This document shows, in pieces, positions 30,428-63,323 of a stretch of 64,000 nt of DNA. Every line of letters starts with the position of its first letter. Within the stretch, counting starts at the first letter, position 1. The stretch comes from Shigella phage SSG23: sequence record PQ351811, one strand, 5' to 3'. The notes under the pieces are model-generated. The model had not been told where the DNA came from, ran no database searches, and saw only the letters and a list, made by a program, of their open reading frames with translations. The position numbers and the translations under genes are program-made.

Positions 30428-30892
30428 ATGACCCCGTTTCGAGAATCCGTTAAAGGTACATATGCGGCGGTTAAATTCACTGAGGATACACTAGACCGCA
30501 TTGAAAAATTGCAGGAGTTCTACAATCTGCCTAATGCCGTTCCTCGTGATAAACTTCATAGTACGATCTTATATTCTCGTGTTTATGTTCCGTTTATCCC
30601 AGAAGATGGTGAAAAGTTTTTAGGCTCTCTATGCCATCTGAAAGTGTTTGAAACTCAATCCGGTACTAATGCACTTGTGCTGGCATTTGAAAGCGACTAC
30701 ATGCAATTCAGACACGATATCGGCACTGCTTTAGGTGCGACGTGGGATTATCCTGAATATGTACCGCATATCACGCTTTCTTATGATGTTGGTGCGCGTA
30801 AATTTGGCACTGACCTAGAGTTCGATTTAGAGATTGTCCGATCTCATGAATATGTCGAAGATCTAGACCTGGAGTGGACGACCAAACTGTAA
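30428..30892 (+). CDS. acb1: 2H phosphoesterase, 57B/Acb1-like (anti-CBASS cyclic-nucleotide phosphodiesterase)
   Basis: 154 aa; two H-x-T/S-x motifs (HSTIL, HITLS) typical of 2H/LigT fold; same position as T4 57B. Confidence 0.6.
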   Translation: MTPFRESVKGTYAAVKFTEDTLDRIEKLQEFYNLPNAVPRDKLHSTILYSRVYVPFIPEDGEKFLGSLCHLKVFETQSGTNALVLAFESDYMQFRHDIGTALGATWDYPEYVPHITLSYDVGARKFGTDLEFDLEIVRSHEYVEDLDLEWTTKL

Positions 30893-30899
30893 TTCTATA

Positions 30900-30930
30900 C
30901 CCCGAAATTTTTTCGGGGTTTTTTGTTTTT
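30900..30930 (+). terminator. rho-independent terminator
   Basis: Hairpin CCCCGAAATTTTTTCGGGG followed by TTTTTTGTTTTT. Confidence 0.75.
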
Positions 30931-30935
30931 ATGTG

Positions 30936-30964
30936 TTGACAACCATAAACGACTATAGCATAAT
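30936..30964 (+). promoter_or_regulatory. early promoter cassette P1 (TTGACA-N17-CATAAT + conserved leader)
   Basis: GTGTTGACA...TATAGCATAAT, then CACATCGAAACGAAACAC and AGGAGAATCAAAAAAATG. Confidence 0.65.
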
Positions 30965-31004
30965 GCACACATCGAAACGAAACACACTTAGGAGAATCAA
31001 AAAA

Positions 31005-31382
31005 ATGATGATGATGTTTAAAGATAAATTCGAATGTCACTATACCCGTAACTTTGACTTAGTATCCCGCTACTACATTCATAAAGAAACTGGCACGCAA
31101 GTAGTTCTTGAATCTCACAGCGAAGTCGGATTCGATTCAACGAAAGTAGCAATTAGTGCTCGCTTCTGGGATAACGGAAAATTTGCTTATATTGCCTGGA
31201 ACGACGACGAAAATGTAATTACAGTAGCTTTCGGTGATGACTACTACACTAAAAAGACTTTTGATAGCAAGCCATCAAATGAATACCTGAAAGCGTATGT
31301 TCAGCACATGTTCCAACGTGTTCTGACCGGAATGGAAATCAATGTCATGAAAGACATTGTAGACGAAGTAAAATATTCTTAA
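31005..31382 (+). CDS. hypothetical protein
   Basis: ORF-track ORF 30933-31382 trimmed to first ATG after the RBS of the promoter leader. Confidence 0.55.
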   Translation: MMMMFKDKFECHYTRNFDLVSRYYIHKETGTQVVLESHSEVGFDSTKVAISARFWDNGKFAYIAWNDDENVITVAFGDDYYTKKTFDSKPSNEYLKAYVQHMFQRVLTGMEINVMKDIVDEVKYS

Positions 31383-31388
31383 AAACAG

Positions 31389-31417
31389 TTGACAACATGA
31401 AACGGGGGTAGTAAGAT
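31389..31417 (+). promoter_or_regulatory. early promoter cassette P2 with palindromic spacer
   Basis: TTGACA, 17 bp spacer, TAAGAT; inverted repeat GGGGGTA/TACCCCC spans the -10. Confidence 0.6.
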
Positions 31418-31448
31418 ACCCCCACAAACAAACGAAAGGAGAATCAAA

Positions 31449-31607
31449 ATGAAATTTATCGGTAAAACTTTTATGTTCGTAGCTGGTACTCTGTTTACTG
31501 CAACTCTGATAGCTGGTGGGTTGGATATCTTTACTGCCTTTGAAACTTTCGGGTATACTGTAGCGTCGGGTGCTCTCTTCGGATTAGGTTTAGCGATTAG
31601 CAAATAA
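31449..31607 (+). CDS. small hydrophobic membrane protein (52 aa)
   Basis: Short ORF (below ORF-track cutoff) after GGAGAATCAAAATG; MKFIGKTFMFVAGTLFTATLIAGG... Confidence 0.45.
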   Translation: MKFIGKTFMFVAGTLFTATLIAGGLDIFTAFETFGYTVASGALFGLGLAISK

Positions 31608-31616
31608 GGTGATAAT

Positions 31617-31811
31617 ATGGAATTGGATATGGTTAACGCAAAATTTATGGGTAAAGATAAGAAAGGTACAACATTTGTTATTAACAAAACATTGCTTCGC
31701 TCTGACCTTAAGTGGGTAACACAACAATTTGCGGAAGTCAATGAGGCTGTAGTGACCTGCTTTGTCGGTGATAAGAAAGTTTTTGAAATTGACCGTCGTG
31801 GGGGTGTCTAA
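31617..31811 (+). CDS. hypothetical protein
   Basis: 64 aa ORF with RBS, tightly packed. Confidence 0.45.
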   Translation: MELDMVNAKFMGKDKKGTTFVINKTLLRSDLKWVTQQFAEVNEAVVTCFVGDKKVFEIDRRGGV

Positions 31812-32008
31812 TGATCACTAAACTGTTTAGCAATACTTTGTTTCTGATTGCATTTGTTTTCTTTCTGTGTCTGATCATCGGTGTGATTGCAGTCGGTAGT
31901 TATTCCGGTATTACACTAGATGATTTTTGTACATTGGTTTTCTTCTCAAGTGTTCCTACACTCCTGATCGCTGTATGTGGTGCTTTTAGATGGATCTGTG
32001 ATCTATGA
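31811..32008 (+). CDS. small membrane protein
   Basis: 65 aa, two hydrophobic segments; start overlaps previous stop. Confidence 0.5.
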   Translation: MITKLFSNTLFLIAFVFFLCLIIGVIAVGSYSGITLDDFCTLVFFSSVPTLLIAVCGAFRWICDL

Positions 32009-32111
32009 CTGAACAGGAACGAATGATGTTGATAGGTGGACCGGAGTTCACTAAATTTGATGCAATTCTTATTGCGTTGGGGTTTCTTATGATCTGTTGT
32101 ATGGTGGCGCT

Positions 32112-32333
32112 ATGAGTAGCATAAAATATTTTGCTTTCTTGTGTTTTATGATGTTCTTTACATTCTTAGCATGTGTATTCTTTACATGGCTTGCTCATGT
32201 TGATAATGCAACCGGACCGTTTTACTTCTTTTGTGTGCTGTCGGTGTTGACTGGTGCTCTTGTTACGTGGATGATTCGAGATTGTTACGGAATGTATAAG
32301 TTTGAAAAGACTCGACCGAAATGGGGCAAATGA
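32112..32333 (+). CDS. small membrane protein
   Basis: ORF 32097-32333 trimmed to ATG after GGTGG; hydrophobic. Confidence 0.45.
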   Translation: MSSIKYFAFLCFMMFFTFLACVFFTWLAHVDNATGPFYFFCVLSVLTGALVTWMIRDCYGMYKFEKTRPKWGK

Positions 32334-32515
32334 TGAAACTATTTGCGTGGCTAATTATTTTAAATGTAATTATTAAGACTGTTCTCGCTGGTTTACTGAT
32401 GATACATAGCACGGAACCAGAAGAAGCATTAACGTATTGTGTTGCTTATGTGTTGGGATTCTTGCTTACTGCGTGGATGTGTGATGAATATCGAAGAATT
32501 GAGGTAAAACCATGA
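32330..32515 (+). CDS. small membrane protein
   Basis: ORF 32321-32515 trimmed; hydrophobic; overlaps neighbours by 4 nt. Confidence 0.45.
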   Translation: MMKLFAWLIILNVIIKTVLAGLLMIHSTEPEEALTYCVAYVLGFLLTAWMCDEYRRIEVKP

Positions 32516-32730
32516 AGATGACTTTTTATATCTTAGCAAGTATCATGCTTGTGATCTCTTCTGCACTATTTGCATTTCTTACCGTTTGGGGGATCTGCAC
32601 TGATGCGAAGCCGTGGGATATCGTAGAAAACACTGTTATGTTTATTATCAGTCTCATGTGTCTGTTTGATGCATTTAACTCTATCAAAGAAGAAGATCAA
32701 AAACGTCGCGAAAGAAAGCTATATAAATAA
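32512..32730 (+). CDS. small membrane protein
   Basis: 72 aa, two hydrophobic helices, charged C-terminus. Confidence 0.5.
   Translation: MKMTFYILASIMLVISSALFAFLTVWGICTDAKPWDIVENTVMFIISLMCLFDAFNSIKEEDQKRRERKLYK
32722..32729 (+). promoter_or_regulatory. candidate late promoter core TATAAATA (plus strand)
   Basis: Exact TATAAATA at end of preceding ORF, upstream of ORF-free structured region; could be chance in AT-rich DNA. Confidence 0.3.
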
Positions 32731-32735
32731 TAGTG

Positions 32736-32907
32736 AACTAAAACAGCGCGGTTAGAATGATTTGGACGTCACCTAGCCGCATTTATTGCAGCGTATGGGG
32801 TTAATCCGGTACGCTAAAGCATTCACTTGCTAGGCCGCTAGCAGGTTGGAGACAAGGAAGATTCGCTACCTTCCCTATAAGCCACTCTTCGGAGTGGCTT
32901 TTTTATT
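32736..32907 (+). ncRNA. candidate structured non-coding RNA / long 3'-UTR
   Basis: About 170 nt with no plausible ORF; several local hairpins (GCGTA/TACGC, TGCTAG/CTAGCA, GGAAG/CTTCC) ending in the terminator. Confidence 0.25.
32879..32907 (+). terminator. rho-independent terminator
   Basis: Hairpin AAGCCACTCTTCGGAGTGGCTT followed by TTTTTATT. Confidence 0.75.
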
Positions 32908-32932
32908 GCCTAAAATTTTTTAAAAAAAGTTG

Positions 32933-32961
32933 TTGACACCAAATCGTGCCTATAGCATAAT
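32933..32961 (+). promoter_or_regulatory. early promoter cassette P3
   Basis: GTTGTTGACA, 17 bp spacer, CATAAT, then CACCCATCGAAACGAAACAC leader and GGAGAATCAAATTATG. Confidence 0.65.
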
Positions 32962-33007
32962 ACACCCATCGAAACGAAACACACTTTCTTAAACGGAGAA
33001 TCAAATT

Positions 33008-33193
33008 ATGGCACGTCGCATCACTAAAGCACTGAAAGCAGTAAGCAAAGAAAACGTAGTAGCTATTCTGGTAATCTGGGGTTATAACGAAGAATCCGCT
33101 AAACAGAAAGTTGAAGCGGGGTTTGAACTGGCAGTAAAAGCAATGCCGAATGATGACTCTGTAGGGCTGGCAAATTATATCGCATATTTCTGA
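33008..33193 (+). CDS. hypothetical protein
   Basis: 61 aa ORF immediately after promoter-leader cassette. Confidence 0.55.
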   Translation: MARRITKALKAVSKENVVAILVIWGYNEESAKQKVEAGFELAVKAMPNDDSVGLANYIAYF

Positions 33194-33201
33194 TAAAAGT
33201 G

Positions 33202-33231
33202 TTGACAGGGGGAGGATAACTCCCCTACAAT
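33202..33231 (+). promoter_or_regulatory. early promoter cassette P4 with palindromic spacer
   Basis: TTGACA, GGGGGAGGATAACTCCCC palindrome, TACAAT, then CATCAACGAAACGGGAGAATCAAAATG. Confidence 0.6.
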
Positions 33232-33260
33232 ACAACCATCAACGAAACGGGAGAATCAAA

Positions 33261-33482
33261 ATGATCAACTTTAAAGAAGCAGCGAAAGAAATTATCGACT
33301 TTGAGCGCGAATTGTTTGAAATGGAACCAAATATGAGCAAACTGGAACTGGCTAACCAGATCTGGTACTCTAAAATGAATCCATCTGATCGCCTAGAAGT
33401 TATGAACATTGTAGGCGAAGTGAAAGGTAGTGCACTAATGAAACTCCGCGCTTGCCACGCTTACATCGCTGATCAACTGTAA
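33261..33482 (+). CDS. hypothetical protein
   Basis: 73 aa ORF after promoter cassette. Confidence 0.55.
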   Translation: MINFKEAAKEIIDFERELFEMEPNMSKLELANQIWYSKMNPSDRLEVMNIVGEVKGSALMKLRACHAYIADQL

Positions 33483-33493
33483 GAGGGTATATT

Positions 33494-33682
33494 ATGGGGG
33501 AGAAACCATTAGTACAACTAAGAGTACGCTATAACCAGATTTTAGCATTACTTAAGGCTGAGGGTGTAGATCCATCGGACCGCGAGGCTGTAAAAGCGTG
33601 TCTATCTGATACGGTACAACCAAAACAAAACTATGCTTGTTATATGTACTTTCAAAATCGATTGAATAACGTTAAGTGTTGA
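33494..33682 (+). CDS. hypothetical protein
   Basis: 62 aa ORF with RBS. Confidence 0.5.
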   Translation: MGEKPLVQLRVRYNQILALLKAEGVDPSDREAVKACLSDTVQPKQNYACYMYFQNRLNNVKC

Positions 33683-33691
33683 GGTGATACT

Positions 33692-33880
33692 ATGGAAGAC
33701 AAAATTGAACAATTACGCGAATCCGCTAAAGAGCATGGTATGAGCGAAGAGTTTGTAGAATGGTTTATTTCTAAAAAGGCTGATTCCTGCGGGTGCTTTA
33801 ACTTCATTACTATGTCCATTATGTGGGAAGGTTGGAAAGGTGCAGTAGAAACTGCTCTAGAAATTATGAAAAAAGACTAA
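33692..33880 (+). CDS. hypothetical protein
   Basis: 62 aa ORF with RBS. Confidence 0.5.
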   Translation: MEDKIEQLRESAKEHGMSEEFVEWFISKKADSCGCFNFITMSIMWEGWKGAVETALEIMKKD

Positions 33881-33888
33881 AAAAGTTG

Positions 33889-33917
33889 TTGACAATGGGT
33901 CGGGTGTATAGCATAAT
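33889..33917 (+). promoter_or_regulatory. early promoter cassette P5
   Basis: GTTGTTGACA, 17 bp spacer, CATAAT inside GGGTGTAT/ATACACCC inverted repeat, then CATCGAAACGAAACAC leader. Confidence 0.65.
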
Positions 33918-33959
33918 ACACCCATCGAAACGAAACACGAACTACTAAGGAGTATCAAA

Positions 33960-34286
33960 ATGAAACCAGTATCTGTTAAAGTTATCTTCTCTGAATCTTC
34001 TGTATTCGCTAACGCAAACGAAGTATTCCACTTCGAAGACTTCGAGCGTAAAGCACTGGACGCGGCAGCAAAAGCCTATGAAAGCGAATATGACAAAACT
34101 CAAATCGAGGTTACATTCGAAGACGGCACTACTTACGCTTGCCGCCTTGACCTGGGTGATCGTCTGTCTGGCTTCCGTCACCATGTAGAGAAGACAATCG
34201 CTTTCTCTAAAACCGAAAAAGGAAAACACTACTTTTCTGTATTCGGTACTGAAAATCTGGATTTCTTGAAAACGGTTTCTTTCTAA
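33960..34286 (+). CDS. hypothetical protein
   Basis: 108 aa ORF after promoter cassette. Confidence 0.55.
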   Translation: MKPVSVKVIFSESSVFANANEVFHFEDFERKALDAAAKAYESEYDKTQIEVTFEDGTTYACRLDLGDRLSGFRHHVEKTIAFSKTEKGKHYFSVFGTENLDFLKTVSF

Positions 34287-34294
34287 GGTATATT

Positions 34295-34477
34295 ATGAAA
34301 AAGATTAATTGGTTAGCGAACATAGGCGCGGTATGCGCCTTTAACATCCTCGGATGGATAATGTTACATTTTGATGATCGCGTTTCAAAATGTGAAGGTG
34401 GATTGATTCTAGGATCTGCTAGTGTTTTCATTATGCTGTATGCAATTATAGTTGACTTAAACCGCGAGGATTGTTAA
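34295..34477 (+). CDS. small membrane protein
   Basis: 60 aa, hydrophobic. Confidence 0.5.
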   Translation: MKKINWLANIGAVCAFNILGWIMLHFDDRVSKCEGGLILGSASVFIMLYAIIVDLNREDC

Positions 34478-34478
34478 T

Positions 34479-34679
34479 ATGAAAATTAATAATAGTGCCA
34501 TCAGATTTTCGAGCGTATATGCTAGTTTCATTGCGCTGGTCTGTATGTTTGTTTTTATTCCTGTTGTACTTCTTGGATATTGTGATATTGAAGTAGCATT
34601 GATTGCTGGGATCTATATGTGGGTTGCGGTCTTTGTTCTTTCAATTGTAATGTGCAAGATTATTGACTATACTGATTAA
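34479..34679 (+). CDS. small membrane protein
   Basis: 66 aa, two hydrophobic helices. Confidence 0.5.
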   Translation: MKINNSAIRFSSVYASFIALVCMFVFIPVVLLGYCDIEVALIAGIYMWVAVFVLSIVMCKIIDYTD

Positions 34680-34697
34680 CTGTGTGAGGATTATATT

Positions 34698-35018
34698 ATG
34701 AGCAAACTGTTTGAAACTCCGCGCGAAATTCTGATTGATAAACTGAAAGAGCGTGGTTTTAAGATCAAAGATGCAACCAAATACAGCAGAATTGATGAAA
34801 TTAAGTTGCATTCTCTTGATGAACTGGTAGAATATGTTGCGGCAGTGGCTGATCCGCAGTTTGATGTTATTGTAGGTGACGTTGAATATCTCGATAATGT
34901 ATATTCATTCTTCACTTATGGTAAAATTGTGTCTGTGAAAATTTCATTCTGTGAAAATGTGGAGGTACTTGCTAGTGAACCAGAAGAACCAACTAACAAC
35001 GGTCCTACGGCAGCGTAA
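34698..35018 (+). CDS. hypothetical protein
   Basis: 106 aa, after TGTGAGGATTATATTATG translation-initiation motif. Confidence 0.5.
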   Translation: MSKLFETPREILIDKLKERGFKIKDATKYSRIDEIKLHSLDELVEYVAAVADPQFDVIVGDVEYLDNVYSFFTYGKIVSVKISFCENVEVLASEPEEPTNNGPTAA

Positions 35019-35289
35019 CAAGGAAGACCGCCTGATTTATGCGCTGGCTGTTATCCTAGAAAAAGAATTACCGGATCTTGAGGTAGTCTTTACTGACAGA
35101 CCAGTAGGCCAACGTTACGGCGGATATGATAGCCTAGTTTATCCTTCATATAGCCTTGAAATGTGGGTAGAAGATTTTAAAAACCTGGCTGATACATCTA
35201 AACCGCTTTATCTATGGGATGTTGAGTATAATTGCGATCCTAACTGGCCTGGTATTAATGTTTATGCGTCTATGACTTTGAAGGTGTGA
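34951..35289 (+). CDS. hypothetical protein (start uncertain; may begin at GTG near 34975)
   Basis: 112 aa ORF overlapping previous gene; GGAGG RBS upstream of an in-frame GTG. Confidence 0.4.
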   Translation: MKMWRYLLVNQKNQLTTVLRQRNKEDRLIYALAVILEKELPDLEVVFTDRPVGQRYGGYDSLVYPSYSLEMWVEDFKNLADTSKPLYLWDVEYNCDPNWPGINVYASMTLKV

Positions 35290-35291
35290 TA

Positions 35292-35450
35292 ATGATTGAA
35301 CAAATGTTAACTGCAACGGTAATGGCTTTCTGTATGGTTGTTGTTATGATTGCAATGATCCCTAAAGAGAGAATGAGTCTTCTTGTCGCTGTCTGTGTGG
35401 GTGTTGTTTGCGGATGGTTTGGAATCGCTTTAGAACAAGCTCTGCGTTGA
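35292..35450 (+). CDS. small membrane protein (52 aa)
   Basis: Short hydrophobic ORF below track cutoff, starts 2 nt after previous stop. Confidence 0.4.
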   Translation: MIEQMLTATVMAFCMVVVMIAMIPKERMSLLVAVCVGVVCGWFGIALEQALR

Positions 35451-35511
35451 TTAACAAAGCGGGTAGGGGAATGTACTACCCGCACTAAATTAGCTAACTG
35501 GAGGGCTTTCT

Positions 35512-35700
35512 ATGGCGTTTTATCTATGGTTGATTATAGTATGCTTTGTGCTGGGGTTGTGCTTCTATACTGGCGTATTCTGTTTGATTGGCTGGATAAA
35601 CGGAGGATTCTCTAGTATCATTTTGCTTGCCGGATCAATCGCCTCGTTTCTGTTGATATGGCTTTTTTCTTATTTGTTTGGTGAATGGGATTTATTATGA
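35512..35700 (+). CDS. small membrane protein
   Basis: 62 aa, two TM-like helices. Confidence 0.5.
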   Translation: MAFYLWLIIVCFVLGLCFYTGVFCLIGWINGGFSSIILLAGSIASFLLIWLFSYLFGEWDLL

Positions 35701-35876
35701 ACAAATATATGTTTTGGGCGATCCTTGCCTATGTTGTGATTGCGGTAGTCTGGGGACTCTGTGTTATTGTCGCTTCCCTGATCTGGTGGGAATCACTTGG
35801 CGTGGGTTGCTTGATTAGTGGTGCATCCTCTCTTATTATGGGTGTGATTGTTGGGTTTCTTGTGTCGGGGGATTGA
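35685..35876 (+). CDS. small membrane protein
   Basis: 63 aa, hydrophobic, overlapping neighbours. Confidence 0.5.
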   Translation: MGFIMNKYMFWAILAYVVIAVVWGLCVIVASLIWWESLGVGCLISGASSLIMGVIVGFLVSGD

Positions 35877-36094
35877 CAATGGTTTTCTTCGGTCTTATTA
35901 TAATGGTGCTTAATGTCATTTGTGGCGTTGCTATGTTAGCTATGGCCTTTACTGTTCCTATGTCTGTTGATAGCGCCGCATCCGTAGGCGTGTTGGGAAT
36001 TGTAAACCTGTTTACCGCCCTAGCATGTTGGATCACCGGACGAGATGAGGTAATGTATTACTTTTATAAACGTAAACAGAGAAAAGGAAAATAA
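35873..36094 (+). CDS. small membrane protein
   Basis: 73 aa, hydrophobic, basic C-terminus. Confidence 0.5.
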   Translation: MTMVFFGLIIMVLNVICGVAMLAMAFTVPMSVDSAASVGVLGIVNLFTALACWITGRDEVMYYFYKRKQRKGK

Positions 36095-36095
36095 T

Positions 36096-36287
36096 ATGAG
36101 ATTTGCATTTGGTTTTACCGTGATGTTGATTATTGCTCTGAGTATGTGTACCGGAATGCTTGTATTTGGTCTTGCAAACGGATTTAGCATTTATAATGAT
36201 CCGTGGGTTGATTGGGGGATGGTTGCTGTTAATGCGATCCTGATTGGTGCTAATACAAGAACTCTATGCAGGATCACAGGAATCTAA
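36096..36287 (+). CDS. small membrane protein (holin candidate by position)
   Basis: 63 aa hydrophobic protein directly upstream of the endolysin gene. Confidence 0.4.
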   Translation: MRFAFGFTVMLIIALSMCTGMLVFGLANGFSIYNDPWVDWGMVAVNAILIGANTRTLCRITGI

Positions 36288-36315
36288 ATATTATCACTCA
36301 CAAAGGGGGTGAATA

Positions 36316-36705
36316 ATGTTTAAATTATCTAAAAGAAGCAAAGATCGGCTTGTTGGCGTACATCCAGACCTGGTAAAAGTCGTTCATCGTGCATTAGAAC
36401 TGACTCCGGTCGATTTTGGTATTACGGAAGGTGTGCGTAGTCTAGAAACGCAAAAGAAATATGTTGCGGAAGGTAAATCTAAGACTATGAAATCTCGTCA
36501 TCTTCACGGTTTCGCGGTTGACGTTGTAGCGTATCCTAAAGATAAGGATACATGGAACATGAAATATTACCGCATGATCGCTGATGCATTTAAACAAGCT
36601 GGTCGAGAATTGGGTGTTCCTGTTGAATGGGGTGGAGATTGGACCAGTTTCAAAGATGGTCCTCATCTACAATTGCCACACAGCAAATACCCAGATCCAA
36701 AATAA
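36316..36705 (+). CDS. endolysin, peptidase M15 (L-alanyl-D-glutamate peptidase / VanY-like)
   Basis: 129 aa; SRHLHGFAVDV and DGPHLQL motifs typical of zinc D,D/L,D-peptidase M15 fold; no signal peptide. Confidence 0.75.
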   Translation: MFKLSKRSKDRLVGVHPDLVKVVHRALELTPVDFGITEGVRSLETQKKYVAEGKSKTMKSRHLHGFAVDVVAYPKDKDTWNMKYYRMIADAFKQAGRELGVPVEWGGDWTSFKDGPHLQLPHSKYPDPK

Positions 36706-36767
36706 AATATTAACCATCAACGGGGAGACAATCTAAGGATCTCTCCCCGTTCACTGGAGACTTTACC

Positions 36768-37253
36768 ATGAATATTGATGTAAAATTAGAAAGTAAAGAT
36801 TTGATTTATGCTGCGTGTGTATCTGCCGTAAATGGCATCATAGAACGCCGTAAGCGACGCAATTTTGCTGATGACCTAGATTCCATAGTCTCAATCAATT
36901 TAGGCCGTCAGACAGGGCATACAGACGCTACAATCAAGTTATATGACCATTATACGCGAAAAGGCTATAGTGTCTTTATCGTTTCAACGACGCGGGAACA
37001 TGCCAAAACGATCCGAGATCGCGGTCGCGGTGAAAATGTCAACATTTCAAATGTAGATTGCACGTCGATCCGAACTTTCCTGAATCCGATCACTTGGCGA
37101 GGTCGTAGTCTTGACAAAACAATTTTTATCCTAGATACTACCATGCGCGGATTTACTGACAGCGTATTGCAGTTTTTAGAGTTAAATCGACTTAGTGTTG
37201 GGATGGGTAATGTAGAAGACCAACCTATTTTCATTGGCTTAGGTATCAACTAA
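36768..37253 (+). CDS. hypothetical protein
   Basis: 161 aa ORF with GGAG RBS. Confidence 0.5.
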   Translation: MNIDVKLESKDLIYAACVSAVNGIIERRKRRNFADDLDSIVSINLGRQTGHTDATIKLYDHYTRKGYSVFIVSTTREHAKTIRDRGRGENVNISNVDCTSIRTFLNPITWRGRSLDKTIFILDTTMRGFTDSVLQFLELNRLSVGMGNVEDQPIFIGLGIN

Positions 37254-37378
37254 TGAAAAATAAAGATAGCGTAGCTCGTCGATTCCGTGCTACAATCAAT
37301 AAGAATCGTAAAGTCCAACCTGATAAACTCTATGGGGTTTTGGTTGGAAAAGTTAATGACGAACGTCCTGATCTATAA
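37253..37378 (+). CDS. possible small basic protein (41 aa)
   Basis: Short ORF in the gap before GrcA, start overlapping previous stop (TAATG); unsupported otherwise. Confidence 0.25.
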   Translation: MKNKDSVARRFRATINKNRKVQPDKLYGVLVGKVNDERPDL

Positions 37379-41571: not shown

Positions 41572-41786
41572 AGAAGCCTAATACCGCTCACATGAAGGAA
41601 AACTGCCGATGTGGTAGATGTGGTTGGCCTATTATCTTCACTTGCTGTAACGACGATATGCAGCGTTTACCGTGGGGAATGTGGGATTGGTGGATGTATT
41701 GCAGCAATAAAGGATGTATTCACCATGAAGGCGAAGGAGTGTTTCAAGAAACGCCTGATTGGGTGGAGGTGATAGAAAATGCTTGA
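41568..41786 (+). CDS. small Cys-rich (zinc-binding) protein
   Basis: ORF trimmed to ATG after GGAG; CRCGRCGW...CCNDD...CSNKGC. Confidence 0.45.
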   Translation: MKKPNTAHMKENCRCGRCGWPIIFTCCNDDMQRLPWGMWDWWMYCSNKGCIHHEGEGVFQETPDWVEVIENA

Positions 41787-42072
41787 GACTATCATTAACC
41801 TTGTTATGTGGACTTTTAATTTCGTTATTGTTATTATTGCGGGTATTGAGATCGTCAAGCAATATCTGTTACAATCCAGAAATAAACATGTTGTAATTGA
41901 TATGGATTCTCAAGGAAATAAGCTGATCCTGCTAGAAGACGGTCGGGAATATTGGGTAGGTTATCCAAAGACACTACGCGGATTTATCTTTGCTATGGGT
42001 GTTTGCTTCTTTTTCCTTTGTATCTGGGTTTATGTTGGTTTAGGTCTTGCTGGATTTTTGGAGATTAATTAA
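41779..42072 (+). CDS. small membrane protein
   Basis: 97 aa, two hydrophobic helices. Confidence 0.45.
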   Translation: MLETIINLVMWTFNFVIVIIAGIEIVKQYLLQSRNKHVVIDMDSQGNKLILLEDGREYWVGYPKTLRGFIFAMGVCFFFLCIWVYVGLGLAGFLEIN

Positions 42073-42736: not shown

Positions 42737-43039
42737 ATGTCATTTATTCGTAAAACTCTAACAGCGGCAATATGCTTGACTGCGGTCGGAAGTGTCAGTG
42801 CTGATCAATATGATCCAACTGGTGACTTTACTGATTATTTCGACGGTGCAATGATAGTATATGTAAACAAAATATCTCCTTCCATTGAAACCAGCCAGAA
42901 ATTTCATGCCCATATTATGAAGATGTATGCTCGTAGTAAATGTATGGATTCTAAGCAGTGTTTTATTATGGGGGAATATGCCGCAAAACAATTTGTTATG
43001 TTGTATAATGTGGAGAATCGAGAACATGAAATTCAGTGA
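42737..43039 (+). CDS. secreted hypothetical protein
   Basis: 100 aa, N-terminal signal peptide (LTAAICLTAVGSVSA), two Cys. Confidence 0.5.
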   Translation: MSFIRKTLTAAICLTAVGSVSADQYDPTGDFTDYFDGAMIVYVNKISPSIETSQKFHAHIMKMYARSKCMDSKQCFIMGEYAAKQFVMLYNVENREHEIQ

Positions 43040-43424
43040 TTTTCGAAAGACGTCCGAAGAGGGGAAAGCTAATAAAGTTGACCGCTTTATCGGTGAATGT
43101 CTGATGAGTGTTACTTATATGCATTCTGCGCATTTTGGGGTGACTGGTCCAGGATCTTATGCAAAACATAAGGCTCTAGAAGAGTTCTATCTTGAAATGC
43201 AAGAATTGGTTGATAATTTCACTGAAACCAATATTGGGATCACTGGTCGTTATCAACCAACGTTGGTCGTCCGCAAGGAGATTAGCGAAATTGCCTATTT
43301 GCAAGAGTTAACGCAAATGGCTAGTGAGATTTATAATGATGTTGATAGCTCGTTACAGAGCGTTTTAGATGATATCAAAGTTCTATGCTTTAAAACAATT
43401 TATAAACTCACTCGACTGGCTTAA
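43026..43424 (+). CDS. Dps/ferritin-like protein
   Basis: ORF trimmed to ATG after GGAG; HSAHFGVTGPGSYAKHKALEEFY...ELVDNFTE resembles the Dps ferroxidase-site pattern. Confidence 0.45.
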   Translation: MKFSDFRKTSEEGKANKVDRFIGECLMSVTYMHSAHFGVTGPGSYAKHKALEEFYLEMQELVDNFTETNIGITGRYQPTLVVRKEISEIAYLQELTQMASEIYNDVDSSLQSVLDDIKVLCFKTIYKLTRLA

Positions 43425-58707: not shown

Positions 58708-58736
58708 GCTCACATCGAAAACAACGAGAGGACAAC

Positions 58737-59276
58737 ATGATGATGTTTTGTGTACTGAGCAAAGAAGTTAAACTTCGTAAACTGGAAATTGGCGATGGTG
58801 TTGTTGTTAAAATGCACGCTAGCACATTGACTAGTTTTAATTTAAAGGAAAGTTTTTTTATTAGAGGAACGGTGGTTAATATCTGCTGGAGTAAAGGCGA
58901 AGGAATCCGTAGCTTTTGCGTAATTGACGATGATAATAACCTGTATGTGATTCGCTATCATAATAATTCTATATTGGTCTATACCGACAATTCACGAGAA
59001 TTGTATACTCTTGAATTTGTTAAGCGTACTGATTGCGATCGATTTGTTCGTGCTTATGAAGAAGATGGCTGTTTTGCGACTGAAACAGAAACACATGAAT
59101 ATGTTCCTATGGAAGTAGGAGCCGAAATTAAACACAAGATCACGGATCGTATTTTTAAGGTTGTGGCGGTTGCTCATACTCAATTTGTAGCGCAAGCGCC
59201 GGATGAAGAATTTATTATCTACAATATTGGTAATGCAAGTTCTCACTTTCATAATGTACAATATCGCGATCTTTGA
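58737..59276 (+). CDS. hypothetical protein
   Basis: 179 aa ORF after promoter cassette. Confidence 0.5.
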   Translation: MMMFCVLSKEVKLRKLEIGDGVVVKMHASTLTSFNLKESFFIRGTVVNICWSKGEGIRSFCVIDDDNNLYVIRYHNNSILVYTDNSRELYTLEFVKRTDCDRFVRAYEEDGCFATETETHEYVPMEVGAEIKHKITDRIFKVVAVAHTQFVAQAPDEEFIIYNIGNASSHFHNVQYRDL

Positions 59277-62909: not shown

Positions 62910-63175
62910 TCGAGATATACGGCATACCGAAAGAGGCTTATCATTGTTATGGTTGTATTGGTGCAATGAAGCTACTGGATGATCTGGGTATTCCGTATAC
63001 ACTTAAACCAGTATTCAAGCAGGTCGGGGTTGACATTATTCCCGACCGTGATATGATTGAAGAACTGGCGGGGAGGCTGAACTCAAAGAGCCTCCGGTTT
63101 GTATACCCCCAGATATTCATTGACAACGAGCACATTGGAGGCTATAAAGAACTGAGGGCGATTTATGATTATTGA
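62906..63175 (+). CDS. glutaredoxin-like protein (NrdH-like)
   Basis: 89 aa; CYGC redox motif and YPQIFIDNEHIGGYKEL. Confidence 0.6.
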   Translation: MIEIYGIPKEAYHCYGCIGAMKLLDDLGIPYTLKPVFKQVGVDIIPDRDMIEELAGRLNSKSLRFVYPQIFIDNEHIGGYKELRAIYDY

Positions 63176-63323
63176 GAATTTAGTTTCGGTGTTCATTATT
63201 GCTTTATTTGCTATAATGGCTTTACCGTTGAATAAGTGTAAACACTGTAACGGAACAGGATTGCGTGGTGATGGGTGTTGCGCTCATTGTCATGGATCTG
63301 GTAAAGTAAGTATCATTAAGTAA
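63165..63323 (+). CDS. small membrane-anchored zinc-finger protein (52 aa)
   Basis: Short ORF below track cutoff; N-terminal hydrophobic helix, CKHCNGTG and CAHCHGSG; coordinates by eye. Confidence 0.3.
   Translation: MIIENLVSVFIIALFAIMALPLNKCKHCNGTGLRGDGCCAHCHGSGKVSIIK

What the first reader, a model, noticed from the sequence alone, without database searches (positions are those of the whole stretch)
31449..36287. Arrays of very small hydrophobic proteins, one ending directly at the M15 endolysin
Two runs of tightly packed, often overlapping ORFs of 50-78 aa with one or two transmembrane-like segments occur at 31449-32730 (six ORFs) and 35292-36287 (five ORFs). The last, at 36096-36287, is immediately upstream of the peptidase M15 endolysin gene, which is the usual position of a holin or antiholin. 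The number and packing of these membrane peptides is striking; candidates include holin/antiholin, superinfection-exclusion factors or membrane-defence inhibitors.
Basis: partly seen in the sequence, partly recalled or inferred. Interest (0 to 1): 0.4.

Follow-up and report, generated by a model that had tools for sequence, protein, structure and literature searches.

The report
Early small membrane proteins, not holins
Thirteen real genes of unknown function, each encoding a tiny inner-membrane protein, crowd a variable early-gene region of an RB49-like coliphage; they end next to the endolysin gene, but the phage's holin and antiholin lie elsewhere.

Summary
The window is a Krischvirus (an RB49-like relative of T4), 100% identical to Shigella phage SFHK24. 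Thirteen plus-strand genes of 36-73 aa encode strongly hydrophobic proteins: twelve two-helix hairpins and one single-pass protein. One ORF inside run A is the soluble antitoxin Dmd. This 2.9% of the genome holds 12 of its 17 small TM proteins (p about 1e-8 to 1e-11). The genes are under purifying selection (dN/dS about 0.26). They are unrelated to one another and have no homologues outside the genus.

The holin reading is not supported. A canonical T holin, an RI antiholin (window 42737-43039, unannotated in the record) and spanins exist elsewhere. The blocks lie behind sigma70-type early promoter cassettes (PeSLs), and block A shares an operon with dmd. C5 does not co-occur with this endolysin family in other phages. 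A conserved hairpin hides the endolysin's ribosome-binding site, as in T4 gene e.

The best reading is early accessory inner-membrane proteins, possibly acting like Imm or against host defence, but the function is untested. RB49's TM predictions were tabulated in 2006. Interest is modest.

The parts
31389..31448 (+). PeSL-type early promoter cassette ahead of block A: TTGACA-17-TAAGAT, a GGGGG...CCCCC stem-loop, and the leader GGAGAATCAAA before the ATG
   Evidence: Corresponds to the published RB49 early promoter Pe:60244. PeSLs are defined in PMC2839356.
31449..31607 (+). A1, 52 aa, weakly hydrophobic two-helix membrane protein; first gene of the dmd operon
   Evidence: KD maximum 1.67. TMHMM 7-29 and 33-50 for RB49ORF124c. 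phrog_16462. dN/dS 0.05.
31617..31811 (+). dmd antitoxin. It is soluble and is not one of the membrane proteins, but it is co-transcribed with block A.
   Evidence: PHROG Dmd E 7e-29. 43% identity to T4 Dmd, E 2e-13. No TM segment.
31811..32008 (+). A2, 65 aa, two-TM hairpin; the most variable member
   Evidence: KD maximum 3.30. TMHMM 5-27 and 42-64. dN/dS 0.57. Alleles are 74-97% identical.
32005..32115 (+). A3, 36 aa, single-pass membrane peptide
   Evidence: KD maximum 2.57. TMHMM gives one helix for RB49ORF121c. phrog_15282.
32112..32333 (+). A4, 73 aa, two-TM hairpin with a basic C-terminal tail (six K/R)
   Evidence: phrog_15290.
32321..32515 (+). A5, 64 aa as annotated (probably starts at 32333, giving 60 aa as in relatives); two-TM hairpin
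   Evidence: The PHROG match covers residues 5-64. Relatives are annotated as 60 aa.
32512..32730 (+). A6, 72 aa, two-TM hairpin with a conserved MKM start and a highly charged C-terminus; last gene of the operon
   Evidence: dN/dS 0.04 among close relatives. Two allele classes at 68% identity with dS 1.16.
32879..32905 (+). Intrinsic terminator that closes the block A transcription unit (and the candidate small RNA upstream of it)
   Evidence: Published RB49 terminator 58720-58737.
33889..33959 (+). PeSL early promoter cassette (TTGACA-17-CATAAT plus the conserved leader). It is the nearest strong promoter upstream of blocks B and C and the endolysin.
   Evidence: Published RB49 Pe:57746, score 37.4.
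34295..34477 (+).
   Evidence: RB49ORF112c. phrog_16425.
34479..34679 (+). B2, 66 aa, two-TM hairpin. It has no blastn match in RB49, W115 or Brandy; by eye it resembles RB49p110. RB49 carries an extra TM gene (p111) at this position.
35292..35450 (+). C1, 52 aa, two-TM hairpin. Its basic loop (PKERMS) suggests an inverted topology.
   Evidence: (RB49ORF107c).
35459..35483 (+). GC-rich stem-loop between C1 and C2, with no promoter and no T-run; a possible attenuator or stability element
   Evidence: minimum free energy -18.3 kcal/mol, z -2.0.
35512..35700 (+). C2, 62 aa, two-TM hairpin with no Lys or Arg at all
35697..35876 (+). C3, 59 aa, two-TM hairpin
35879..36094 (+). C4, 71 aa, two-TM hairpin plus a basic tail (YKRKQRKGK). 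It is the most constrained member, and residues 42-71 are invariant even in the alleles that are 80% identical.
   Evidence: 0 non-synonymous against 77 synonymous differences.. AlphaFold2 model with helices 2-25 and 30-69, pLDDT 77.
36096..36287 (+). C5, 63 aa, two-helix hairpin directly upstream of the endolysin; an ORFan restricted to the genus
   Evidence: AlphaFold2 model with helices 2-30 and 36-61, pLDDT 66. The only significant fold matches are its own orthologues.
36278..36330 (+). RNA hairpin that sequesters the Shine-Dalgarno sequence and AUG of the endolysin. Its 5' arm carries TCTAAATA, one mismatch from the T4 late promoter.
   Evidence: Minimum free energy -13.3 kcal/mol, z -3.8 to -4.8. 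The structure is lost if the 5' end is at 36296. 49 nt are invariant in 7 genomes. The T4 gene e precedent is in PMC3014915.
36316..36705 (+). Endolysin, Peptidase_M15_4 (L-alanyl-D-glutamate peptidase type); no TM or signal segment
   Evidence: Pfam E 4e-12, PHROG endolysin E 1e-68. KD profile.
42737..43039 (+). rI antiholin (100 aa), unannotated in PQ351812. It shows that the antiholin role is already filled.
   Evidence: Pfam PF24205 Antiholin, 81.8 bits against a cut-off of 27. RB49 has the late promoter Pl:48756 directly upstream of its rI.

Best explanation
The region encodes thirteen genuine accessory proteins of 36-73 aa that are restricted to the genus Krischvirus and insert into the host inner membrane. 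Twelve are helical hairpins, mostly N-in/C-in with periplasmic loops of only 3-14 residues, and one is single-pass. They lie in the hyperplastic interval between 57B (Acb1) and the endolysin, which is syntenic with the 57B-to-e interval of T4. They are organised as three translationally coupled blocks behind sigma70-type PeSL early promoters.

Block A forms one operon with the antitoxin gene dmd. Blocks B and C lie in the unit that reads on into the endolysin gene. The proteins are therefore made in the first minutes of infection. The endolysin ORF at the end of the same early transcript is kept silent by a hairpin over its ribosome-binding site.

They are not the lysis holin or antiholin, because T, RI and the spanins are encoded elsewhere. 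Almost nothing protrudes from the bilayer, so they most likely act through helix-helix contacts within the membrane or through short cytoplasmic tails. The most likely purpose is to remodel or guard the envelope of the freshly infected cell. That could mean Imm-like superinfection immunity or neutralising membrane-embedded host defence or host proteins.

Shown: the genes, their hydrophobicity and topology, selection, clustering, restriction to the genus, and the presence of T and RI elsewhere. Predicted: early transcription and the regulatory hairpin. Inferred: the biological role.
For: - Real genes: annotated in 58 Krischvirus genomes. Pooled dN/dS is 0.26, and 0.13-0.5 for most genes between divergent alleles (A1 and B2, with few substitutions, 0.7-0.95), with TM character preserved.
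- Membrane hairpins: KD profiles, published TMHMM, AlphaFold2 models and charge distribution.
- Clustering: p = 2e-11.
- Thirteen unrelated families: separate PHROGs and no pairwise similarity.
- Restricted to the genus: tblastn against 50,697 phage records, word-index searches of 5.8 billion proteins for C5, C4 and A6, and exhaustive HMMER for C5.
- Early expression: PeSL cassettes at 31389, 32933, 33202 and 33889 match the published RB49 promoters Pe:60244, 58699, 58430 and 57746, and PeSL promoter and terminator activity was tested experimentally. No late promoter is predicted between RB49 52.4 and 64.5 kb, whereas rI has one.
- Lysis roles filled elsewhere: T holin at 206 bits, RI at 82 bits, spanins.
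- Decoupling from the endolysin: the hairpin over the SD and AUG is invariant in 7 genomes. It parallels T4 gene e and a Bragavirus M15 endolysin.
- Anti-defence neighbourhood: Acb1 at 30428-30892 (174 bits) and Dmd.
- T4 Imm and Sp have no homologue in this genome.
- Mosaic allele exchange: A6 dS is 1.16 against 0.15-0.23 for its neighbours.
Against: - No expression or phenotype data exist for any of the thirteen. The timing rests on promoter predictions.
- No late promoter is predicted for the endolysin either. TCTAAATA has a mismatch at a normally conserved position, so the timing argument is incomplete.
- Holins are extremely diverse, so the lack of homology cannot exclude a holin-like activity.
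- C4, A4 and A6 have the generic class II holin layout: two TM helices, N-in/C-in, with a charged C-tail. A6 also begins M-K-M, reminiscent of a dual start.
- The adjacency of C5 to the endolysin is conserved in every Krischvirus examined.
- The Imm-like or anti-defence role is guilt by association. T4-type genomes pack many unrelated early genes tightly, so operon membership is weak evidence.
Confidence: 0.6

Rival explanations
1. C5 (perhaps with C4) is a holin, pinholin or antiholin that works with the adjacent M15 endolysin.
For: - C5 ends 28 nt before the endolysin in all Krischviruses examined.
- C4 has two TM helices plus a strongly basic C-tail, and C5 has a weakly hydrophobic second helix.
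- Holin families are too diverse for homology searches to exclude membership.
Against: - A canonical T holin, an RI antiholin and spanins are present.
- The context is early promoters with no predicted late promoter.
- The endolysin is translationally insulated from the upstream genes by a conserved hairpin.
- C5 and C4 are absent from the other 1200 phages that carry this endolysin family. Other T4-like phages with the same endolysin have soluble upstream genes.
- Holin Pfam hits score only 10-14 bits against cut-offs of 27-29, no better than hits to unrelated TM families.
- The endolysin has no SAR or signal segment that would call for a pinholin.
Confidence: 0.1
2. The translationally coupled blocks (A2-A6, C2-C5) encode subunits of one or two heteromeric intramembrane complexes, such as a channel or scaffold, rather than independent effectors.
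For: - ATGA-type start/stop overlaps and gaps of 1-2 nt occur within blocks.
- Gene order and content of block C are invariant across all relatives, including the ~90%-identity metagenomic ones.
- All members are similarly sized hairpins.
Against: - Tight overlaps are the norm for unrelated neighbours in T4-type genomes.
- Members of block A show independent allele mosaicism: A6 was exchanged without A2-A4 and vice versa. That argues against obligate co-adapted subunits.
- B2 is replaced or expanded in some genomes.
- No co-folding test could be run.
Confidence: 0.1
3. They are host-takeover factors aimed at host physiology rather than at phage-phage or phage-defence conflict. Examples would be inhibitors of membrane transporters, FtsH-type proteases, respiration or division.
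For: - Predicted early expression.
- Purely intramembrane architecture, similar to small bacterial membrane regulators (from memory: AcrZ, MgrB, KdpF).
- Strong constraint on C4, A1 and A6 suggests conserved targets.
Against: - Restriction to the genus and mosaic, fast-turnover alleles fit conflict genes better than conserved housekeeping targets.
- The neighbouring genes of known function are anti-defence genes (Acb1, Dmd).
Confidence: 0.15
4. The ORFs are not functional genes. They are hydrophobic reading frames produced by T-rich composition in a junk-like variable region.
For: The + strand at 34-36 kb is T-rich (AT skew -0.16). No family has a known function.
Against: - dN/dS is well below 1, with dozens of synonymous changes: C4 0/77, A6 18/112, A1 12/76 (non-synonymous/synonymous).
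- The frames are intact in 10 genomes or contigs.
- Most starts have RBS-like motifs.
- TM character is preserved across alleles that are 65-80% identical.
Confidence: 0.02

Closest known systems
T4 Imm (immunity to superinfection; 83 aa, two TM helices, early gene)
   Same: It is a small two-TM inner-membrane protein made early by a T4-type phage (for sequence and hydrophobicity; role as summarised in PMC7677548). This genome has no Imm homologue, so the role is open.
   Different: No sequence similarity to any of the thirteen. The genomic position differs: T4 imm lies between genes 42 and 43. No exclusion phenotype has been tested for the Krischvirus genes.
T4 e.3, e.4 and trna.4 (uncharacterised predicted membrane proteins in the syntenic 57B-to-e interval)
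   Same: Same genomic interval between 57B and the endolysin gene, predicted TM proteins and unknown function. This shows that membrane ORFans upstream of the endolysin are a general feature of T4-type hyperplastic regions.
   Different: T4 has three or four such proteins, mostly 100-130 aa and mixed with tRNAs and soluble genes. Krischvirus has thirteen, all 73 aa or shorter, in three tight blocks. There is no sequence relationship: the tblastn found no T-even hit.
Class II holins and pinholins (for example lambdoid S21-type; phiP27 L28/L29 next to a related M15 endolysin)
   Same: Small size, two TM helices, N-in/C-in topology and a charged C-terminus in C4, A4 and A6. A6 begins M-K-M. C5 sits directly upstream of an endolysin.
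   Different: Predicted early rather than late expression. T holin and RI are already present. No family match. No co-occurrence with the endolysin outside the genus. The phiP27 holins are unrelated to the thirteen.
PeSL-flanked ORFan cassettes of RB49 and phi1 (Arbiol et al. 2010, PMC2839356)
   Same: Same phage group and same architecture: ORFans in a hyperplastic region bounded by sigma70-like early promoters plus GGGG...CCCC stem-loops.
   Different: That work addressed how such cassettes shuffle, not what they encode. It never mentions membrane proteins. Here blocks of 5-7 genes share one cassette, rather than one ORFan per cassette.
T4 T holin / RI antiholin lysis-timing pair
   Same: Both are present in this phage: T in the genome and RI in the window.
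   Different: They are different proteins at different loci, with large periplasmic domains. None of the thirteen resembles them or has a periplasmic domain.

Membership tests
Holin (any class), as partner of the adjacent endolysin | Small protein with at least one TM helix and a charged, hydrophilic C-terminus | tested here: met
   C4, A4 and A6 have two TM helices plus tails with 6-7 K/R. C5 has two helices and a short tail with two Arg. This feature is generic and not diagnostic.
Holin (any class), as partner of the adjacent endolysin | Expressed late, from a late promoter or late transcript | tested here: not met
   Only sigma70-type PeSL early promoters lie upstream. There is no TATAAATA before block C, and no late promoter is predicted in RB49 between 52.4 and 64.5 kb. 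This is based on prediction; no transcript data exist.
Holin (any class), as partner of the adjacent endolysin | Sequence membership of a described holin family | tested here: not met
   Best Pfam holin hits score 10-14 bits against cut-offs of 27-29. Nothing was found in NCBIfam, and the PHROGs are of unknown function.
Holin (any class), as partner of the adjacent endolysin | Genetic linkage with the endolysin that is maintained across phages carrying that endolysin | tested here: not met
   Linkage is seen only within Krischvirus. Bragavirus phiP4-3, Klebsiella phage RCIP0006, KaOmega, phiP27 and Yersinia 574 have unrelated or soluble upstream genes.
Holin (any class), as partner of the adjacent endolysin | Forms lethal membrane lesions at a programmed time and is needed for endolysin release | not testable with these tools
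   Requires induction or complementation assays. The genome already encodes a Phage_holin_T protein at 206 bits.
T4-like antiholin RI (PF24205) | Match to the family model; N-terminal SAR or signal segment plus a periplasmic domain | tested here: not met
   None of the thirteen matches, and none has a periplasmic domain. The true RI is at window 42737-43039 (82 bits).
T4 Imm superinfection-immunity protein | Sequence homology to Imm | tested here: not met
   tblastn and phmmer of T4 Imm against the whole genome give nothing better than E = 1.9.
T4 Imm superinfection-immunity protein | Small early inner-membrane protein with two TM helices | tested here: met
   Twelve hairpins of 52-73 aa behind early promoters. 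The architecture and the predicted timing match.
T4 Imm superinfection-immunity protein | Blocks DNA entry of superinfecting phage | not testable with these tools
   Needs superinfection or exclusion assays.
T4 Spackle (Sp, gp61.3) | Secreted periplasmic helical protein that inhibits the gp5 tail lysozyme | tested here: not met
   There is no Sp homologue in the genome. The thirteen have no periplasmic domain, with loops of 3-14 residues.
PeSL + ORFan cassette (Arbiol 2010) | Sigma70-consensus early promoter with an adjacent stem-loop, flanking ORFans in a hyperplastic region of an RB49-type genome | tested here: met
   Cassettes at 30899-31001, 31389-31448, 32879-33005, 33202-33260 and 33889-33959.

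The most novel reading that the evidence does not exclude
Krischviruses lack Imm and Spackle. They may instead carry a modular, recombining toolkit of 13 almost purely intramembrane hairpin micro-proteins, made in the first minutes of infection. Individual members could block DNA entry by superinfecting phages, or switch off membrane-anchored host defence effectors by helix-helix binding inside the bilayer. Block C might instead form a heteromeric early membrane complex. Either case would define new families of intramembrane anti-defence or exclusion factors.
Probability: 0.2. Interest if true: 0.6.

Novelty: new member of a known kind. Interest (0 to 1): 0.3.

Why it matters
Small membrane ORFans are a large and almost unstudied part of the unexplained gene content of T4-type phages. 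Here nearly three quarters of one phage's small membrane proteins are concentrated in 4.8 kb. They sit between two proven anti-defence genes (Acb1, Dmd) and the endolysin, are under selection, and are exchanged as alleles. That makes a compact, well-defined target for deletion and expression screens for new superinfection-exclusion or anti-defence mechanisms that act inside the membrane.

As things stand it is a catalogued feature with no known function, not a surprise. The genes have been annotated since the RB49 genome was published, and their TM predictions were tabulated in 2006. The practical value of this check is negative: annotators should not label C5 a holin because of where it sits.

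Tried and rejected
- Homology searches for function found nothing usable. PHROGs gave 13 separate families of unknown function. Pfam at E up to 1 gave only sub-threshold TM noise. NCBIfam and PADLOC gave nothing usable.
- Wider searches found only Krischvirus sequences. These were a tblastn of all thirteen against 50,697 phage records, the 5.8-billion-protein search for C5, C4 and A6, and exhaustive HMMER for C5. In one search the extra hits were short stretches in proteins of 900-3000 aa, which I took as spurious.
- Paralogy among the thirteen was rejected: every pairwise E-value was 0.1 or higher in a 13-sequence database.
- A holin-endolysin cassette acquired by horizontal transfer was rejected. 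The neighbours of the closest foreign endolysins are unrelated.
- AlphaFold2 plus Foldseek against viral structures recovered only the proteins' own orthologues (E 4e-8 and 7e-6). Everything else was a generic hairpin at E of 0.4 or more, so fold gives no functional lead.
- Homologues of T4 Imm and Sp as occupants of the exclusion role were not found.
- A relationship between the conserved non-coding element at 32731-32905 and T4 rnaC or rnaD, tRNAs or any Rfam family was not found.
- An exact late promoter in front of block C or the endolysin is absent.
- My first enrichment test used a wrong gene count (25 CDS). It was recomputed with the correct 22.
- Two literature searches failed on a term-length rule.

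Full report
**Identity of the window**

A megablast of 31000-37300 finds 58 phage records, all Krischvirus (RB49-like members of the T4 family Straboviridae). One is a 100% match, Shigella phage SFHK24 PQ351812. I assembled the whole 168,820-bp record from fetched loci. The window equals record positions 3342-67341 exactly. The finding therefore concerns a published, annotated genome.

**Checking the observation**

All the ORFs described are present on the + strand. They are annotated as CDS in SFHK24, RB49, JSE, W115, Makalu_003, Brandy and phiS. Kyte-Doolittle analysis of every annotated CDS between 31005 and 37807 shows thirteen strongly hydrophobic small proteins:

- Block A: A1 31449-31607 (52 aa), A2 31811-32008 (65), A3 32005-32115 (36), A4 32112-32333 (73), A5 32321-32515 (64) and A6 32512-32730 (72).
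- Block C: C1 35292-35450 (52), C2 35512-35700 (62), C3 35697-35876 (59), C4 35879-36094 (71) and C5 36096-36287 (63).

The ORF at 31617-31811 inside the first run is not hydrophobic. It is Dmd, the antitoxin against RnlA/LsoA (PHROG E 7e-29; 43% identical to T4 Dmd). C5 ends 28 nt before a Peptidase_M15_4 endolysin at 36316-36705.

Independent support for the TM calls comes from two sources. Published TMHMM calls exist for the RB49 orthologues (PMC1524935, Additional File 2). ORF103c, 104c, 106c, 107c, 110c-112c, 118c-120c, 122c and 124c each have two helices, and ORF121c has one. ORF105c, the orthologue of C3, is not in the list, and ORF106c appears twice. AlphaFold2 models C4 and C5 as two-helix hairpins (pLDDT 77 and 66).

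**Is it more than chance?**

In a census of all 283 annotated proteins, 21 have a 19-residue KD window of 1.9 or more. Of the 17 that are 100 aa or shorter, 12 lie in window 31811-36287, which is 2.9% of the genome. With the weaker A1 included, 13 of the 22 CDS in the interval are TM against 9 of 261 elsewhere (Fisher p = 2e-11). Among small CDS only, the counts are 12 of 19 against 5 of 101 (p = 2e-8).

The genes are under purifying selection. Across seven genomes the pooled dN/dS is 0.26, against 0.15 for soluble controls. C4 shows 0 non-synonymous and 77 synonymous differences, and A1 and A6 are about 0.05. In three more divergent metagenomic relatives (about 90% nucleotide identity) all thirteen persist with their hydrophobicity intact. 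For most genes, dN/dS between divergent alleles is 0.13-0.5; A1 and B2, which have very few substitutions, give 0.7-0.95 and are uninformative. They are real genes.

**What they are not related to**

Each protein falls into its own small PHROG of unknown function. All-against-all BLASTP gives no pair better than E = 0.1, so they are not paralogues. Pfam, NCBIfam and PADLOC give no hit at or near threshold. The few holin-family hits score 10-14 bits against cut-offs of 27-29, and they sit among equally weak hits to unrelated TM families.

A tblastn of all thirteen against 50,697 phage records finds only the same 58 Krischviruses. Searches of about 5.8 billion proteins with C5, C4 and A6 return only proteins at least 80% identical, the longest of them on contigs of about 165-175 kb. 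An exhaustive HMMER search of 1.84 billion representatives with C5 adds nothing credible. Foldseek against viral structures returns only their own orthologues.

**The holin question**

T4-type phages keep the holin gene t far from the endolysin gene. This genome has the full canonical set:

- a 218-aa Phage_holin_T protein next to the long tail fibre genes (record 105130-105786; 206 bits against a cut-off of 22);
- two spanin genes (record 131001-131773);
- rIIA and rIIB;
- an RI antiholin.

RB49 annotates rI after tk. The window carries the intact orthologue at 42737-43039, which the SFHK24 record fails to annotate. It matches Pfam Antiholin PF24205 at 82 bits against a cut-off of 27. The holin and antiholin roles are therefore already filled.

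The M15 endolysin family occurs in 1258 phage records, but C5 and C4 do not travel with it. Two other T4-like phages have the same enzyme type. In Bragavirus phiP4-3 the endolysin sits at the T4-like position (nudE ... lys ... denV, regB, vs, tk, rI). RCIP0006 is a 174-kb Klebsiella phage whose locus is mostly unannotated. In both, the upstream gene is soluble (149 and 133 aa) and there is no TM array. The closest foreign endolysins, about 63% identical, are preceded by unrelated holins (phiP27 L28/L29), by a soluble protein (KaOmega) or by nothing (Yersinia 574). None resembles the thirteen.

**Transcription context**

The interval carries repeated cassettes. Each is a stem-loop, then TTGACA-17-CATAAT, then a conserved leader ending GGAGAATCAAA before the ATG. 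These are the PeSL elements (promoter-early stem-loop) described for RB49 and phi1 as strong sigma70-type early promoters joined to terminators. PeSLs flank ORFans in hyperplastic regions and mediate their shuffling (PMC2839356).

The window cassettes at 31389, 32933, 33202 and 33889 correspond to the published RB49 early promoters Pe:60244, Pe:58699, Pe:58430 and Pe:57746. The inferred units are:

- P(31389) drives A1, dmd and A2-A6, ending at the terminator at 32879-32905 (published RB49 terminator 58720-58737).
- P(33889) drives the LPD25-domain gene, B1, B2, two soluble genes, C1-C5 and the endolysin, and continues towards the terminator after vs.6.

No exact TATAAATA precedes block C or the endolysin. 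The published late-promoter list has nothing between RB49 52.4 and 64.5 kb, although it does place Pl:48756 directly in front of rI. The thirteen proteins are therefore predicted to be early products. Block A is co-transcribed with an antitoxin that must act immediately after infection.

**How an endolysin can sit at the end of an early operon**

The C5-endolysin junction folds into a hairpin that pairs the Shine-Dalgarno sequence and the AUG of the endolysin with the last codons of C5. The free energy is -13.3 kcal/mol, z is -3.8 to -4.8, and 0 of 200 shuffles fold as well. The 49 nt around it are invariant in seven genomes, while adjacent C5 codons vary.

The 5' arm contains TCTAAATA, one mismatch from the T4 late-promoter consensus. 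An RNA starting just downstream, at 36296, loses the structure (-3.3 kcal/mol, z -0.35). This is the logic documented for T4 gene e, where early read-through transcripts are translationally silent and late transcripts start inside the 5' strand (PMC3014915). The T4 e leader folds at -15.1 kcal/mol, z -3.7. That review lists RB49 and phi-1 among phages with 'no apparent gene e', so the M15 leader was not examined there. The Bragavirus M15 endolysin has an even stronger AUG-sequestering hairpin whose 5' arm begins at AATAAATA (-15.8 kcal/mol, z -6.3).

The late start site is inferred, not shown. If the hairpin acts as predicted, C5 and the endolysin are decoupled in translation despite being neighbours.

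**Architecture and evolution**

I combined the TMHMM boundaries with charge counts. About ten of the twelve hairpins have basic N- and C-termini and short, neutral or acidic loops of 3-14 residues. That implies an N-in/C-in topology with almost nothing exposed to the periplasm. There are some exceptions and special features:

- C1 has a basic loop and may be inverted.
- C2 has no Lys or Arg.
- A4, A6 and C4 carry basic cytoplasmic tails of 13-18 residues.
- C4 residues 42-71 (TM2 plus the tail) are invariant even between alleles that are 80% identical.
- A6 keeps its MKMTFY start and charged tail between alleles that are 68% identical.

In the divergent relatives the membrane proteins are 65-97% identical, while the soluble neighbours are 97-99% identical. 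The pattern is mosaic. L018 matches the window at A2-A4 (97-100%) but not at A6 (68%), and L019 shows the reverse. A6's dS of 1.16, against 0.15-0.23 for its neighbours, points to allele replacement by recombination rather than rapid local change. B2 has no blastn match in RB49, W115 or Brandy. By eye it resembles RB49p110, and an additional two-TM gene (RB49p111) sits beside it there.

**Neighbourhood**

The interval is syntenic with T4's 57B to ipI, the tRNAs, rnaD and rnaC, e.8-e.2, nudE and e. T4 also has predicted membrane proteins of unknown function there: e.3, e.4 and trna.4. The Krischvirus array is therefore an extreme case of a general trend.

The gene annotated as 57B or 'RNA ligase' immediately upstream is Acb1, the anti-CBASS nuclease (174 bits), and dmd lies inside block A. 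T4's two superinfection-exclusion proteins, Imm and Spackle (roles as summarised in PMC7677548), have no homologue anywhere in this genome.

**Interpretation**

The best-supported reading is that these are early, accessory inner-membrane micro-proteins of a hyperplastic region, not lysis proteins. Their near-total burial in the bilayer suggests they act by helix-helix contacts or through short cytoplasmic tails.

Several features fit genes involved in conflict, such as Imm-like superinfection immunity or neutralisation of membrane-embedded defence effectors: predicted early timing, anti-defence neighbours, the absence of Imm and Sp, restriction to the genus and allele mosaicism. This last step is inference, and host-takeover targets are a reasonable alternative.

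A holin-like activity of C4, C5 or A6 cannot be excluded from sequence, but nothing specific supports it and several independent lines argue against it.

**Novelty**

The genes have been in GenBank since the RB49 genome was published. Their TM predictions were tabulated in 2006, and W115's annotators already label most of them 'putative membrane protein'. The literature I could search contains no discussion of the clustering or of their function. I rate this as catalogued members of a known kind, small early phage membrane ORFans, with modest interest.

Noticed in passing
window 32722-32908 (+): The 277-nt 'gap' after block A is not empty. An invariant TATAAATA (the T4 late-promoter consensus, overlapping the A6 stop codon) is followed by about 165 nt that fold very stably (-65.9 kcal/mol, z -4.3, 0 of 200 shuffles as stable). 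This stretch is GC-richer than its flanks (0.47 against 0.38) and ends at the intrinsic terminator at 32879-32905. It is 98% conserved in 7 genomes, more than the flanking genes, and most of the variation falls in a predicted hairpin loop. It is present but unannotated in all 58 Krischvirus records. It has no Rfam family, is not a tRNA, and shows no similarity to T4 rnaC or rnaD, although the locus is syntenic with theirs. It is a candidate new small RNA.
   Followed up: partly
window 36278-36330 (+); also L012 5950-6020 and L016 980-1045 (-): The non-homologous M15 endolysins of Krischvirus and Bragavirus carry the same kind of SD/AUG-sequestering leader hairpin as T4 lysozyme gene e, with a late-promoter-like motif in the 5' arm. 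The published survey of e leaders skipped RB49 and phi-1 as having 'no apparent gene e'. The regulatory logic seems to have survived replacement of the enzyme.
   Followed up: partly
window 42737-43039 (+): An intact rI antiholin gene (100 aa, 94% identical to RB49 RI, PF24205 82 bits) is missing from the PQ351812 annotation. The record instead calls a 51-aa minus-strand ORF and an over-long rI.-1 (window 42927-43424).
   Followed up: yes
window 30428-30892 (+): The gene annotated as '57B' or 'RNA ligase' just upstream of the region is Acb1, the anti-CBASS nuclease (Pfam 174 bits). Together with dmd it marks this hyperplastic region as partly an anti-defence locus.
   Followed up: partly
window 31811-32730 compared with L017-L019: Block A alleles are mosaic among relatives: A2-A4 and A5-A6 are exchanged independently. 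A6 has a dS of 1.16 against about 0.2 for neighbouring soluble genes, which indicates recombination with distant lineages inside one operon.
   Followed up: partly
L009 6059-6634 (JSE) and L011 6816-7391 (phiS); L019 8892-9419: Some relatives carry an extra gene near the endolysin. In JSE and phiS a 191-aa ORF lies between the endolysin and vs.8. I took it by eye to be an HNH/AP2-type homing endonuclease and did not run a family scan. In L019 a gene with a weak HNH_3 Pfam hit lies after vs.6. SFHK24 and RB49 lack both.
   Followed up: no
window 32903-33004 (-): The 33-aa minus-strand CDS annotated in PQ351812 (record 36244-36345) lies across the PeSL terminator and promoter and is probably spurious.
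   Followed up: no
window 35873-35901 (+): A near-consensus sigma70 promoter match (TTGACA-17-TATTAT, 11 of 12) spans the C3 stop and the C4 start. If active, it would give a transcript covering C5 and the endolysin only. It may be a chance match.
   Followed up: no
window 41779-42072 (+) and four other loci outside the region: The few small TM proteins elsewhere in the genome also have no known function. They include a 97-aa protein just before tk, a 52-aa TM plus CxxC protein at window 63165-63323, and 36-47-aa peptides at record 84579, 90851 and 162044.
   Followed up: partly
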